This document shows, piece after piece, positions 44,541-57,491 of a stretch of DNA of 64,000 bases (positions are counted from its first letter, which is position 1; each line of letters starts with the position of its first letter). Location: NCBI RefSeq assembly GCF_009914755.1, contig NC_060932.1. One strand, given 5' to 3'. The notes beneath the pieces were generated by a model, which was given only the letters and a program-made list of their open reading frames with translations, was not told the origin of the DNA and made no database searches. The DNA comes from the human T2T-CHM13v2.0 reference genome, Homo sapiens. Both the position numbers and the translations under genes were made by a program.

Positions 44541-46473
44541 TGTCATTCTTGTTTTGTTGTGCTTCACTTTATTGCAGGTATTAGTCTGTTTTCACACTGC
44601 AATAAAAAATACCTGAGACTGGGTAATTTATAAAGGAAATAATTTTAATTGACTCATGGTTCCACATAGCTGGGGTGGCCTCAGGAAACTTACAATCATG
44701 GCAAAAAGGGGAAACAAACATGTCCTTCTTCACAAGGCAGCAGGGGAGAGGAGTGCAAGTGAAGGGGGAAGAGCCCCTTATAAAACCATCAGATCTCATG
44801 AGAGCTCACTATTTTGAGAACAGCATGGGGAAAAGTGTCCCCATGATTCAATTACCTCCACCTGGTCTCTCCCTTGACATGTGGGGATTATGGGAGTTAT
44901 GGGAATTACAATTCAAGATGAGAATTTGGGTGGGGACAAAACAAAACCATATAATTGCACTTAGCAGATATGGCATTTTTTACAGATTGAATGTTTGTGT
45001 CAACTTTGCTTTGAGCATCTCTATTGGTGCCATTTGTTTTCCAATAACATGTGCTCTCTTTGTGTCTCTGTGTAACATTTTGGTAACTCTCACGATAGTT
45101 CAAACTTATTACTATTATTATATTTGTTATGGTGGTCTGTAATGAGTGATCCTTTTGTAATTGTTTTAGGGCAACACAAACTTCTCCCATATAAGACAGC
45201 AAATTTAATCAATAAATGTTGTGTGTGTTCTGACTGATCCACAGAGCAGCCCTTCCTTCATTTCTTTCACTCTCCTTGGACCTCCCTATTCCCTGAAACA
45301 CAACAATATTGAAATTAGGCCAATTAATTACACTACAATGGCCTCGAATTGTTCAACTGAAAGAGTCACACAGTTCTCACTTTAAATCAAATGCTAGAAA
45401 TGATTAGGTTTGGTGAGGAAGTTACATCAAAAGCTGAGATAGGCTAAAAGCTAGGCTTCTTTTACCAAACAGCCGATTTGTGAATGCAAACAAAAAGTTC
45501 TTGAAGAAAATTAAAAGTGCTACTTTAGTGAACATATGAATAATAAGAAAGTGAAACAGCCTGAATAATCATATGGAGAAAGTTTTAGTGGTCTGGATAG
45601 AAGATCAAATCAGCCATAACATTCCTTAAAGTCAAAGCCTAATCTAGAGTAAGGCCCTAATTCTCTTCAATTCTGTGAAGGCTGAGAGATGTGAAGAAGT
45701 TGCAGAAGAAACATTTGAAGATAGCAGAACCTGGTTCATAAAGTTTAAGAAGCTTCATAACATAAAAGTGCAGAGTGAAACATCAAGTGCTGATGGAGAA
45801 GCTGCAGCAAGCTATAGAGAAGATACAGCTAAGATCATTAATGAAGGCAGCTACCCAAGACAAGATTTTCTATGTAGACAGAACAGCTTTATAATGGAAG
45901 AAGATGCCATCTAAGGCTCTCATAACTAGAGAAAAGTCAATGCCTGGCTTCAAAGCTTCAAAAGATAGGCTGACTGTCTTGTGAAGGGCTGATGTAGTTG
46001 ATGACTTTAAGTTTAAGTCATTTACTATTCTGAAAACCCTAGGGTCTTTCAGAGTGATGCTAAACTACTCTGCCTGTGCTCTCTAAATGGATCAACAAAG
46101 CCTGGATGATGGTACATCTGTTTACAGCATAGTTTACTGGATATTTTTAGCCCACTGTTTAGACCTAATGCTCAGAAAAAAAAAAAAGTACTTTCAAAAT
46201 ATTACTACTCACTGACAAAGCATGTGGTCATCCAACAGCTCTGATTGAGATGTACAAGGAGGCTGATGTTATATTCACACCTGCTATCCAACATCTACTC
46301 TGCAGTGCATGGATCAAGGAATCATTTTGACTTCCGAGTCTAATTATTTAAAAAATACATTTTGTAAGGTTAGAGCTGCCATAGATAGTGATTCGTCTGA
46401 TGGATCTGGGCAAAGTAAATTGAATACCCTCTGGAAAGGATTCACCATTTTAGATACCATTAAGAACATCTAT
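44541..46473 (+). mobile_element. Tigger1 DNA transposon, 3'-truncated, with decayed pogo-like transposase
   Basis: Tigger1 5' sequence; ORF fragments ...[17 protein letters not shown]... (45675-45914) and MDQGII...WKGFTILD (46309-46527). Confidence 0.9.
44577..44954 (-). mobile_element. THE1C/D MaLR solo LTR inside Tigger1
   Basis: 5-bp TSD TTGCA at 44572-44576 and 44955-44959; CTTATAAAACCATCAGATCTCATGAGA motif. Confidence 0.9.
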
Positions 46474-46654
46474 GACATTTTTAGATGGGACATTTTACCT
46501 GTGTTTTGGAGGATGAACATGTGTTAATTTGGTGAAGAAGATTAAAGATGGAGTGGCAAACATTCCAGACAGAGGAAAAAGAATAACTAAGGGCTTACAT
46601 TAATTGAGCACTTACTATGTACCAAGATGTGTGCTAAGTGCCATATGGCACATT

Positions 46655-46972
46655 TTATTTTATTTTTTAATTATTTATTTATTTATTTTAGAGACAGAGT
46701 CTCGCTTTGTTGCCCAGGCTGGAGTGCAGTGGCGTGATCTTGTCTCACTGCAACATCCACCTCCCAGATTCAAGCGATTCTCCTGCCTCAGCCTCCTGAG
46801 TAGCTGGGACTACAGGTGTGCACCACCATACCCAGCTAATTTTTGTATTTTTTAGTAGAGACGAGGTTTCACCATGTTGGCCTGGTTCGCCTTGAACTCC
46901 TGACCTCAGGTGATCCACCTGCCTCGGCCTCCCAGAGTGCTGGGATTACAGGCATGAGCCACTGCGCCCCAC
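46655..46972 (-). mobile_element. AluS SINE
   Basis: Full antisense Alu with (TTTA)n tail. Confidence 0.93.
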
Positions 46973-46984
46973 CCAGCCACTAAT

Positions 46985-54489: not shown

Positions 54490-54852
54490 TTTCTTTATTT
54501 TTTTTCTTTTTACTTGTTTTTTGTTTTTGTTTTTATTTTTTTGTTTTTGTTTTTGTTTGAGGCAGGGTCTCACTCTGTCACCCCAGCTGGAGTGCTGTGG
54601 TCTGATCATGGCTCACTGCAGCCTCTACCTCCCTAGATCAAGGGATCCTCCTGCCTCAGCCTCCCAAGCAGCTGGAGCTACAGGCATGTGCCACCATGCC
54701 CAGCTGAATTTTTTTTTTTTTTTTTTTTTTGTAGAGACATGGGTCCACTCTGTTGCTCAGGCTGGTCTCGAACTCCTGGGCTCAAGTGATCCTTCCGCCT
54801 CAGCCTGTAAAGTGCTGGAATAACAGGTCTGAGCTGCTGTATTTGACCTGCC
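54490..54852 (-). mobile_element. AluJ SINE
   Basis: CAGGGTCTCACTCTGTC...ATCATGGCTCACTGCAGCC...CTCCTGGGCTCAAGTGATCC. Confidence 0.9.
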
Positions 54853-56509
54853 AAGTGCTTTTTTAATATTGCTTAGTCCTGGTTGGGTATAATCAAGAAA
54901 AACATCAGAGACCAAAGAAAAAGAGGGTTTCATTGAAGGAAATGTGATAAAAATGCTATAATACATCTCTGTCCTGGAGGCACTTGCTATCTAGATAGGT
55001 AGCATAATCATACTCAAAGAAAATACATTATTTAACAAAAATGTACAGCTACAAAATACAAAGTAAATACTTATAATACCATTGGGAGGGAGAGATAAAG
55101 AAAATTAATTTATTCACATCAATAGGAATATCAAAATACAAGAACTTTCCACTCATATACTTGTTCACCAAATAATCTTACTTAAATCTGATTTTAATTT
55201 AAACATTTTTTCTAATATACATTAATATTAGAGTTTCACCTTGCATTCTTCATTTGCAATGTTAATTATTTATTTTTCACTTATTGGAACACTATGCCCT
55301 CATAATCAAGTAATCTGTTGGTAAGTTTCACTATTTATTTCTGAAATCAGTGGATTGGCCTTATGTTTATCAGTTCTTCACGTGAGAAAGAGGAGATTGT
55401 TGGCAAAATCAAATAAAATACAGTGGCTCTGAGCCTCTACCTACTTCATTCAGGACCTTAACATTTGCTGTCTCTTCTCTTCCTCATTAACTGTGGAAAT
55501 CACAAAGGGGAGTGCTTAAAAGTGGTCTTTGAGCTACTGTCACCGCATGGGGTATTTGCGGCAGTTTTTTTCTCTCTTGTTTCAGTTTCTACTTTGTTGT
55601 GTCCACTGTATGAAGAGTGGCTTGAGTTATTCCCACCATTGCCAGTGCACCTCCTGTGTGAAGACAAATACCCACACCAGGATTAGAAGGGGGAAATCTA
55701 CTGAAATGGCAGTGGGGAGGGATGGAAAGAACATACCCAGGAAGGCTGGAGAAGAGGCAGAAGATGAAAGCGGAGCCTGTATCCTGTCTCAAGTGAGGAG
55801 ACAGGTTTATGAGATGGAGAGAGCACAGAAGGTGTTTTGAGAGAATTGTATTGTGCATGGGAGACCAAGAGTCACTGAAAACAACTCAAATTTTTGTTGT
55901 AATTTCTAAAAGAATGTTAAGGGGATACCTATTTTTAACCCATGTCAACATTTCTTAAATTTCTCTTTCTCAGAGCATTTCTTTTTTTTATTGAGGATAA
56001 CAATCTTTTGTCACATAGATGTTGTAAATATGTTTACATGAGTTTTATATGATATAAGCATACCTTAATTGTATCATATGAAATTGTTTATATTCATAAG
56101 TTTTATAATTTTTGATAATCAAACCTTTTAATTTTCTATTATATTTTAGTATGAAGCTTACAAATATGTTCCTTTTGCCAAAATTTATGTAAATATTTGC
56201 CCATATATTTCTAGTTCTTCTACTATTTCATGTTTATGCTTAATTCTTTAATCAGTTGATTTTACCCATCTCACAGTCATTCATAAGGTAACCCAATATT
56301 TCTTACAATTTTAAAAATTACTTTTATTACATACTAAAGATTTAAACACTCTAAACTGTATTTGGAGGATTATATTCTGCTTCTCTAACCAATCATTTAT
56401 TTTAGTACATGTATAATATTCGATTAATTTTTGTAGTTTTATAATATGTTATTTGGTGAAATAAACCCTCCTCAATCATTATTATTCCTCTCAACTTTTT
56501 CTTGTCCTT

Positions 56510-57069
56510 TTAAAAACATAGTGGTTAAATAAACATAACATAAAATTTGTAATTAACCGTTCTTGATGTGTACAATTCTGTGGTATTTAAGTACATTCAA
56601 AATATTGTGCAGCCATCACTTCTATTGGATTTGGATAAAAATCCAGAATATTTTCATCATCTCGGAAAGAAATCCTGTACCTATGAAGCAGTCACTCCTT
56701 TTTTCTGTCTCTCCTTAACCTGTGGCAACCACTAATCTACTTTCTGTCCCTAATGGATTTGCTTATGCAATTCCACTCCTAAAAGAATTGAATACAGGTA
56801 TTCAAATAGAAAGTCATAGTGTTCATAGAGGCACTAATCACACCTGCCAAAAAGTGGAAACAACCTAAATGTTTATCAACCCATCAACAAATGAACTAAA
56901 TTTGGTATATTCATACAATGGAATAGTATCCGATTATAGTAATGAAATGCTGATACACACCATTACATGGATGAACCTTGAAAACATTATGCTAAGTGAA
57001 ATGAGCCAGATACACAGAGAACAAATATTATATGATTCCACTCATAAGCAAATCCATTAGGGACAGAAA
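56510..57069. mobile_element. Rearranged L1MB: 3' end on - (56510-56767), upstream part flipped to + (56768-57069)
   Basis: Minus: GTACATTC...TTGTGCAGCCATCAC...GGCAACCACTAATCTACTTTCTGTC. Plus: TGGATGAACCTTGAAAACATTATGCTAAGTGAAA. The two parts overlap by an exact 27-bp inverted repeat. Confidence 0.85.
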
Positions 57070-57491
57070 AGATGTTGGATAGCAGGTATGAATATAATAT
57101 CAGCCTCCCCGTACATCTCAATCAGAGCTTTTGGATGACCACATGCTTGTCAATGAGTAGTAATATTTTGAAAGTACTTTTTTTTCTGAGCATTAGGTCT
57201 AAACAGTGGGCTAAAAATATCCAGTAAACTATGCTGTAAACAGATGTACCATCATCCAGGCTTTGTTGATCCATTTAGAGAGCACAGGCAGAGTAGTTTA
57301 GCATCACTCTGAAAGACCCTAGGGTTTTCAGAATGGTAAATGAGCACAGGCTTCAACTTAAAAGTCATCAACTACATCAGCCCTTCAGAAGAGAGTCAGC
57401 CTATCTTTTGAAGCTTTGAAGGCAGGCATTGACTTTTCTCTAGTTATGAGAGTCTTAGATGGCATCTTCTTCCAATATAAAGTTGTTCTGT
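57070..57491 (-). repeat. Inverted duplicate of Tigger1 segment 45878-46296
   Basis: Manual alignment: about 14 substitutions and 4 indels over about 420 bp; no transposon termini. Confidence 0.95.

What the first reader, a model, noticed from the sequence alone, without database searches (positions are those of the whole stretch)
45878..57491. Inverted ~420-bp repeat pair 11 kb apart with a substitution-free core: candidate gene-converting, inversion-prone segment
Seen: 57070-57491 is the reverse complement of 45878-46296. My manual alignment gives no substitutions over 46027-46211 versus 57154-57334 (only an A run of 12 vs 8), but about 8 substitutions plus 2 indels on one flank and about 6 plus 1 indel on the other (about 6%). 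Known: independent Tigger1 copies are far more diverged than this, and homogenised inverted repeats mark recurrent NAHR inversions. Inference: a local duplication followed by more recent gene conversion or crossover, so the ~10.8 kb between the copies (including MER41 and MER50 LTRs) may invert. The left Tigger1 is collinear on both sides of the repeat, so this haplotype has the ancestral orientation. Repeat masking would hide this as two Tigger1 hits.
Basis: partly seen in the sequence, partly recalled or inferred. Interest (0 to 1): 0.85.

Follow-up and report, generated by a model that had tools for sequence, protein, structure and literature searches.

The report
Small inverted duplicate with converted core
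A 425-base piece of an old transposon relic was copied upside-down 10.8 kb away at a messy DNA-repair junction tens of millions of years ago, and its middle was later re-copied between the two sites; this is real but ordinary, and nothing shows that the stretch between the copies flips.

Summary
Window 45878-46302 (+) and 57064-57491 (-) are inverted copies with 16 substitutions in 420 ungapped columns. None lies in a 181-column core, which differs only by an A run of 12 versus 8.

- **Copy, not second insertion.** 38 other Tigger1-like copies scored in the same genome are 78-81% identical to the left copy. The left copy lies inside a ~1.5-kb collinear remnant. The right one is an orphan fragment.
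- **Flanks show real age.** They are 6.7% diverged. Of the 16 differences, 8 arose in the left copy, 7 in the right and 1 is ambiguous.
- **The clean core is unlikely to be chance.** The permutation gives p = 0.0016. It is not a mutational cold spot: both copies are 11.6% from the outgroup majority there.
- **Best reading.** An old small duplication was followed by one non-allelic gene conversion of at most 185 bp.
- **Origin of the right copy.** It sits between a 5'-cut Alu and a locally inverted L1 piece, with 2-bp and 4-5-bp junction microhomology. It therefore looks like templated filler at a non-homologous repair junction.
- **Inversion.** Untested here. Catalogue look-ups found nothing but were weak tests.

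This is an ordinary member of known kinds, of low interest.

The parts
44954..46471 (+). Decayed Tigger1-like DNA-transposon remnant, the parent element.
   Evidence: All 6 other genomic copies (L003-L008) extend beyond the repeat on both sides. 3 of them align in one block from 44954/44960 to 46469/46475. A stop-free piece, 46267-46524, gives a weak Pfam DDE_1 hit: E = 0.0028, 17.7 bits, below the 22-bit cut-off. The first look found 3378 candidates in the genome.
45878..46302 (+). Left repeat copy T, the source copy
46027..46211 (+). Substitution-free core in T. It holds an A12 run at 46176-46187.
46303..57063 (.). 10,761-bp spacer between the copies, the segment that would invert if the copies crossed over
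   Evidence: The hub's table annotates no gene here.
57064..57491 (-). Right repeat copy T', an orphan fragment derived from T
   Evidence: In 6 of 6 other copies, homology to the family is confined to 57064/57081-57480/57491.
57154..57334 (-). Substitution-free core in T'. It holds an A8 run at 57178-57185.
57064..57069 (.). T'/L1 junction. These six bases belong to both parents, giving 4-5 bp of microhomology.
   Evidence: One search prints the two parents and the product. One search shows that the outgroup state at 46298 matches T'.
56767..57069 (+). Piece of an old L1-like element, sense on the plus strand and inverted relative to its own 3' end
   Evidence: It is 17.9% from the majority of 5 other copies.
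56500..56766 (-). 3' end of the same L1-like element, on the opposite strand
   Evidence: It is 15.2% from the majority of 5 other copies.
56741..56767 (.). Left arm of a perfect 26-27-bp inverted repeat. Its partner is 57043-57069.
   Evidence: exact match, and each arm occurs only once in the window.
57043..57069 (.). Right arm of the perfect 26-27-bp inverted repeat
57492..57700 (+). Alu lacking roughly its first 100 bp. It abuts T' with 2 bp of microhomology (AC).
   Evidence: alignments to full-length Alus in the window start about 100 bp into those elements (roughly 97-123 bp by coordinate, taking the masked spans in the hub's table as the Alu ends). One search prints the junction.
57692..58212 (+). 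A second, separate L1-like fragment beyond the Alu
   Evidence: It covers the same part of the family as 56846-57046 but shows no direct similarity to it.

Best explanation
T' (57064-57491) is a 425-bp copy of an internal piece of the Tigger1-like remnant at 44954-46471. It was laid down in inverted orientation 10.8 kb away as templated filler at a non-homologous repair or template-switch junction.

Proposed steps, all inferred. A broken end inside an old L1 primed on 4-5 bases of the transposon relic. About 420 bases were copied. The new end joined an Alu about 100 bp into it through 2 bases of microhomology, with loss of the sequence in between.

The flank divergence of 6.7% (Poisson 95% range 3.8-10.9%) puts this at very roughly 25-30 million years ago. 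That date rests on a recalled calibration in which human-macaque divergence is about 6%.

Later, one non-allelic gene conversion of at most 185 bp made the centres of the two copies identical. The 95% upper bound on core divergence is 1.65%. The A run then slipped by four bases.

The pair is a possible but weak substrate for inversion by homologous recombination. No inversion is shown.
For: Shown:
- The pair aligns at 93% (gap columns counted), against 78-81% for 38 other scored copies.
- The left copy is collinear with the family on both sides in 6 of 6 comparisons. The right copy is confined to the repeat in 6 of 6.
- Of the 16 substitutions, 8 are derived in T, 7 in T' and 1 is ambiguous. 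The 7-bp indel is a deletion in T and the 1-bp indel an insertion in T'. Both copies have therefore aged.
- The longest substitution-free run is 181 of 420 columns. Permutation gives p = 0.0016 with 16 substitutions and 0.004 with 14.
- In the core both copies differ from the outgroup majority at 21 of 181 columns (11.6%). The flanks differ at 12-17%. The core is therefore not slow-mutating.
- Junction microhomology is 4-5 bp at the L1 side and 2 bp at the Alu side. The Alu is 5'-cut.
- A perfect 26-27-bp inverted duplication lies beside T', inside an L1 that is 15-18% diverged.

From print:
- The mean human non-allelic conversion tract is 250 bp, at 2.5e-7 per base per generation (bioRxiv 10.1101/135152, abstract and passages).
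- Non-homologous inversions with small insertions or deletions are ascribed to single FoSTeS/MMBIR events (PMC6748972, passage).
Against: - The core was defined after looking at the data. The scan-type test allows for this, but p = 0.002-0.004 is not overwhelming in a scan of many windows.
- With two sequences and no other species, conversion cannot be told from any other process that re-copied the centre. Its direction is unknown.
- The repair-junction model is inferred from one haplotype. No empty site was seen.
- 2-5 bp of microhomology is modest.
- The outgroup 'majority' rests on only 6 copies.
- The L1 inversion could be a separate event from the T' insertion.
Confidence: 0.65

Rival explanations
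1. Old duplication only. The 181-bp clean core is a chance gap in the scatter of substitutions, and no conversion occurred.
For: There are only 16 substitutions. The test is post hoc within a scan of a very large number of windows. The A-run difference lies inside the core.
Against: Permutation gives p = 0.0016-0.004. At the flank rate of 6.7%, about 12 differences are expected in the core and none is seen. The core is as diverged from other copies as the flanks are.
Confidence: 0.12
2. The core was homogenised by crossovers: the spacer has flipped an even number of times, or is still polymorphic in people, and conversion accompanied those crossovers.
For: The geometry is an inverted repeat with a 157-bp exact block. 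Inverted mobile-element pairs flank 31 of 132 sequence-resolved NAHR inversions, among them 9 Alu pairs of which only 1 exceeds 90% identity (bioRxiv 10.1101/2021.12.20.472354, passage).
Against: This haplotype is in the unrearranged orientation. The repeats behind the genotyped NAHR inversions are 654 bp or longer. No PRDM9-type 13-mer lies between 44 and 59 kb. No catalogue entry was found, though the tests were weak. Conversion without crossover explains the data as well.
Confidence: 0.08
3. T' is young, and the flank differences are errors made by a low-fidelity polymerase near the template-switch points when it was copied.
For: The differences cluster towards both ends of the insert. From recall, replicative rearrangements are described as error-prone near their junctions.
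Against: This predicts that every difference is derived in T'. In fact 8 of the 15 polarised substitutions and the 7-bp deletion are derived in the parent copy T.
Confidence: 0.02
4. There were two independent Tigger1 insertions, and the right one was converted along its whole length by the left one.
For: Both stretches belong to the same repeat family.
Against: No family homology extends beyond either end of T' in 6 of 6 comparisons. T' is an internal piece with no element end. Its two boundaries fall on an Alu and an L1 with microhomology.
Confidence: 0.01

Closest known systems
Non-allelic (interlocus) gene conversion between duplicated sequences
   Same: Two nearby paralogous copies on one chromosome show mosaic divergence: an identical tract of at most 185 bp inside 6-7% diverged flanks. 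This fits the few-hundred-bp tracts reported for humans, with a mean of 250 bp (10.1101/135152).
   Different: The copies are only 425 bp long, below the 1-kb definition of a segmental duplication. They are non-genic and inverted. Surveys such as PMC10172114 (passages) worked in 1-kb windows within segmental duplications and would not see this pair.
Inversions formed by homologous recombination between inverted repeats
   Same: An inverted repeat pair brackets a 10.8-kb single-copy segment, and the centres of the repeats are highly identical.
   Different: No second orientation has been seen. The repeat is shorter than the 654 bp-24.2 kb repeats of the genotyped NAHR inversions (PMC6748972). 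It lies within the 140 bp-190 kb range of merely candidate repeats in PMC13629690.
Templated insertion at a microhomology-mediated repair or template-switch junction (MMEJ, FoSTeS/MMBIR)
   Same: An inverted copy of nearby sequence (11 kb away) is inserted at a junction with 2-bp and 4-5-bp microhomology. It comes with a deletion (the Alu 5' end) and a neighbouring small inversion carrying a 26-27-bp inverted duplication. The kind of event is described in PMC8421209 (abstract only) and PMC6748972 (passage).
   Different: This is an ancient, fixed event read from one haplotype. The ancestral empty site was not seen, so the number of events and the pathway are inferred.
L1 twin priming (5' inversion made during L1 insertion)
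   Same: The L1 beside T' has an inverted upstream piece joined to a direct 3' piece with a short overlap. This is the structure seen in 26% of polymorphic L1 insertions (10.1101/2021.12.20.472354).
   Different: The overlap is 26/26 identical although the L1 pieces are 15-18% from the family majority. P is about 2e-4 to 4e-3 if the overlap dated from the L1 insertion, so the inversion looks much younger than the L1.

Membership tests
Non-allelic gene conversion between paralogues | The two copies descend from one duplication | tested here: met
   The pair aligns at 93% against 78-81% for 38 other copies. Parent and orphan anatomy is shown.
Non-allelic gene conversion between paralogues | An identical tract that is significantly longer than the surrounding divergence allows | tested here: met
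   A run of 181 of 420 columns gives p = 0.0016 (0.004 with 14 substitutions) in 200,000 permutations.
Non-allelic gene conversion between paralogues | The tract is not explained by a low local mutation rate | tested here: met
   The core is 11.6% from the outgroup majority; the flanks are 12.2-17.2%.
Non-allelic gene conversion between paralogues | Across species, the tract groups by species while the flanks group by locus | not testable with these tools
NAHR-mediated inversion polymorphism | Inverted repeats at both ends of the segment | tested here: met
NAHR-mediated inversion polymorphism | Repeat length and identity in the range known to drive inversions | tested here: inconclusive
   The repeat is 425 bp, about 96% identical without gaps, with a 157-bp exact block. 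Genotyped NAHR inversions have repeats of 654 bp or more, yet Alu pairs flank 9 inversions.
NAHR-mediated inversion polymorphism | Both orientations observed in a population or between species | not testable with these tools
   Only one haplotype was available. Supplement look-ups found no entry. One file set holds no 'chr8' at all, another lists only inversions that overlap genes, and files 13-14 of PMC6748972 were not searched.
Segmental duplication (at least 1 kb, at least 90% identity) | Length of at least 1 kb | tested here: not met
   The repeat is 425-428 bp, and no further homology lies on either side of the right copy.
Independent Tigger1 insertion at the right-hand site | The element extends to its own ends, or at least beyond the shared block, at family-level divergence | tested here: not met
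   Homology is confined to 57064-57491 in 6 of 6 comparisons.
Templated insertion at a microhomology-mediated junction | The insert copies a nearby template, and microhomology is present at both junctions | tested here: met
   The source lies 10.8 kb away. Microhomology is 4-5 bp at 57064-57069 and 2 bp at 57491/57492.
Templated insertion at a microhomology-mediated junction | An ancestral allele without the insert, differing only by the predicted rearrangement | not testable with these tools
   This needs outgroup primate assemblies.
L1 twin priming (for the neighbouring L1 structure) | The inverted and direct pieces date from the L1 insertion, so the overlap is as diverged as the element | tested here: not met
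   The overlap is 26/26 identical, whereas the L1 pieces are 15-18% diverged.

The most novel reading that the evidence does not exclude
The 10.8-kb segment between the copies really does flip recurrently in people or apes through a 425-bp non-Alu, non-L1 repeat with only a 157-bp exact block, and the clean core is the footprint of those exchanges. This would put it among the shortest repeats known to drive recurrent inversion, and it would be invisible to segmental-duplication-based screens.
Probability: 0.06. Interest if true: 0.45.

Novelty: new member of a known kind. Interest (0 to 1): 0.2.

Why it matters
It matters little in itself. The segment is intergenic, with no gene annotated between the copies, and the processes involved are well described: small dispersed duplication, templated filler at a repair junction, and non-allelic gene conversion.

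It is a clean small example of two points. First, sub-kilobase duplicates hidden under repeat masking can still exchange sequence. Second, an orphan repeat fragment can be the fossil of a complex repair event.

If the segment were shown to invert, it would lower the known size limit for repeats that drive recurrent inversion.

Tried and rejected
- **Error-prone copying as the source of the flank differences.** Rejected: 8 of the 15 polarised substitutions are derived in the parent copy.
- **Independent insertion at the right site.** Rejected.
- **A larger, more diverged inverted duplication around the pair.** None was found.
- **A staggered-break inversion of the whole spacer as the origin of both inverted duplications.** Rejected on anatomy. 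The left copy is followed by its own element, and the order of the duplicated blocks does not fit.
- **A recent donor elsewhere in the genome for the inverted L1 piece.** None was found; the best other copies are 72-77% identical.
- **My first reading of the L1 strand.** It came from recall and was wrong. Comparison with 5 other copies corrected it.
- **Twin priming for the L1 structure.** Disfavoured by the 26/26 identity.
- **PRDM9-type motif.** There are 3 in the window and none near the repeats.
- **Pfam on the whole remnant.** It failed because the translation held 43 stop codons. Of three stop-free pieces, one gave a weak DDE_1 hit below the cut-off.
- **Published inversion catalogues.** The Cell 2022 paper is not held. 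Supplement searches by coordinate prefix gave no hits, but searches show that two of these were poor tests. bioRxiv supplements are closed, so Table S2 of 10.1101/2021.12.20.472354 could not be seen.
- **A full-text search for 'RUNX1T1' plus 'polymorphic inversion'.** It gave one conference-abstract book, which I did not open.
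Full report

Yes. The repeat finder gives three collinear inverted blocks between 45878-46302 and 57064-57491. A gapped alignment joins them into one repeat of 425 versus 428 bases.

There are 16 substitutions in 420 ungapped columns (3.8%). Eight lie in 45878-46026, none in 46027-46211, and eight in 46212-46302. 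The indels are 1 bp and 7 bp in the left flank, an A run of 12 versus 8 in the core, and 1 bp in the right flank. The longest exact block is 157 bp and the spacer is 10,761 bp.

**2. Copy or second insertion?**

The same genome could be searched. With the left copy as query, the first look gave 3378 candidates and 40 were scored. The query itself scored 100%, the right copy 93%, and all 38 others 78-81%. The pair is therefore far closer than independent members of the family.

I compared both loci with six of those copies (L003-L008).
- At the left locus, family homology runs on both sides of the repeat in 6 of 6. In three of them it is one block from 44954/44960 to 46469/46475.
- At the right locus, it is confined to 57064/57081-57480/57491 in 6 of 6.

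So the left copy is part of a ~1.5-kb relic and is the parent. The right copy is an orphan internal fragment. The only direct support is a weak Pfam DDE_1 hit below the cut-off (E = 0.0028, 17.7 bits against a 22-bit cut-off).

**3. Are the flank differences age or copying error?**

I used the six other copies as outgroup, requiring a majority of at least 4 of 6.
- 8 substitutions are derived in the left copy, 7 in the right, and 1 is ambiguous.
- The 7-bp indel is a deletion in the left copy. The 1-bp indel is an insertion in the right copy.

Both copies have therefore changed since the duplication. This rules out the idea that the flank differences were made by sloppy synthesis when the fragment was copied.

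Flank divergence is 16 of 239 columns, or 6.7% (Jukes-Cantor 7.0%; Poisson 95% range 3.8-10.9%). With a recalled calibration of about 6% for human-macaque divergence, this points very roughly to 25-30 million years, with wide limits.

**4. Is the clean core more than chance?**

Placing 16 substitutions at random in 420 columns gave a run of at least 181 in 0.16% of 200,000 trials. With 14 substitutions and a slightly shorter repeat the figure is 0.40%.

The core is not a cold spot. Both copies differ from the outgroup majority at 21 of 181 core columns (11.6%). In the left flank the figures are 20 and 18 of 148, and in the right flank 14 and 15 of 87. At the flank rate about 12 differences would be expected in the core. 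The 95% upper bound on core divergence is 1.65%.

A later non-allelic gene conversion of at most 185 bp is the simplest account. The size fits the mean tract of 250 bp, and the rate of 2.5e-7 per base per generation, estimated for human duplicates (10.1101/135152, abstract and passages). A run of 8-12 A is expected to slip quickly (general knowledge), so the A-run difference does not argue against this.

Chance remains possible; I put it at about 0.12. The direction of transfer cannot be told. The decisive cross-species test could not be run.

**5. How did the right copy get there?**

Reading the plus strand, the order is as follows.
- 56500-56766: the 3' end of an old L1-like element, on the minus strand.
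- 56767-57069: the part of the same element that normally lies just upstream, on the plus strand.
- 57064-57491: T'.
- 57492-57700: an Alu lacking about its first 100 bases.
- From 57692: a different L1-like fragment.

In 4 of 5 other genomic copies of that L1 (L010, L012, L013, L014) the two parts lie next to each other on one strand. In the fifth (L011) only the upstream part matched, in one block reaching window 57070. In the window, therefore, a ~300-bp piece is inverted, with a perfect 26-27-bp inverted duplication at 56741-56767 / 57043-57069.

This looks like L1 twin priming. However, the L1 pieces are 17.9% and 15.2% from the majority of the five copies. An overlap as old as the element should then carry several differences; the probability of 26/26 identity is about 2e-4 at 15% and 4e-3 at 10%. 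If the overlap is as old as the T/T' flanks, the probability is 0.17. The small inversion is therefore probably much younger than the L1, and it may belong to the same event as T'.

The junctions:
- **T'/L1.** The six bases 57064-57069 belong to both parents. Four match the present left copy, and five match its state at the time as judged from the outgroups.
- **Alu/T'.** Two bases (AC) are shared.
- I saw no target-site duplication for the cut Alu.

My model is inferred. A break or stalled fork in the L1 was followed by priming on the transposon relic 11 kb away on the opposite strand. About 420 bases were copied, and the new end joined into the Alu with loss of what lay between. Events of this kind, with small insertions, deletions and inversions, are ascribed in print to FoSTeS/MMBIR or related repair (PMC6748972, passage; PMC8421209, abstract only). 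I give about 0.4 to a single event having made T', the L1 inversion and the Alu truncation together.

**6. Does the segment invert?**

This is not shown. The haplotype has the unrearranged orientation, since the left relic is collinear through the repeat.

For comparison:
- The 24 genotyped NAHR inversions have repeats of 654 bp to 24.2 kb at more than 90% identity (PMC6748972, passage).
- A 2026 screen used candidate repeats from 140 bp to 190 kb (PMC13629690, passage).
- Of 132 sequence-resolved NAHR-type inversions, 31 are flanked by inverted mobile elements. These include 9 Alu pairs, only 1 of which exceeds 90% identity (10.1101/2021.12.20.472354, passage).

A 425-bp repeat with a 157-bp exact block is thus a conceivable but weak substrate.

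No PRDM9-type 13-mer lies between 44 and 59 kb; the window has 3 in all. An inverted Alu pair at 88% identity (46707-46843 / 57517-57653) brackets almost the same interval.

Searches of supplementary tables by coordinate prefix found nothing, but they were weak tests.
- One file set contains no 'chr8' string at all.
- Another lists only inversions that overlap genes.
- Two files of PMC6748972 were not searched.
- The Cell 2022 paper is not held, and bioRxiv supplements are closed.
- My hg38 and hg19 coordinates are estimates from recalled RUNX1T1 positions.

**7. Verdict**

The 'inversion-prone' half is untested and unlikely to matter. The locus is an ordinary example of known processes in an intergenic region. 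The one added point of interest is that the orphan copy appears to be filler in an old complex repair junction.

Noticed in passing
window 56741-56767 and 57043-57069: A perfect 26-27-bp inverted repeat, 275 bp apart, marks a ~300-bp piece of an old L1-like element that is inverted relative to the element's own 3' end. It resembles twin priming, but the overlap is far too well preserved for an element 15-18% diverged. The inversion is therefore probably much younger, and possibly part of the event that inserted the right repeat copy.
   Followed up: partly
window 57492-57700: An Alu lacks about its first 100 bases and abuts the right repeat copy with 2 bp of microhomology. I saw no target-site duplication, which suggests that the rearrangement removed its 5' end.
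   Followed up: partly
window 46707-46843 and 57517-57653: An inverted Alu pair at 88% identity brackets almost the same 10.8-kb interval as the repeat pair. It is a second, weaker possible substrate for the same inversion.
   Followed up: no
window 46176-46187 and 57178-57185: The A run inside the otherwise identical core is 12 bases in one copy and 8 in the other. It is likely to vary among people, and it would be a handy marker for telling the two copies apart in reads.
   Followed up: no
window 56846-57046 and 57995-58200: Two L1-like fragments on the same strand cover the same part of the family (both map to 25915-26303 in the window) but show no direct similarity to each other. They are therefore separate old insertions rather than halves of one element.
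   Followed up: partly
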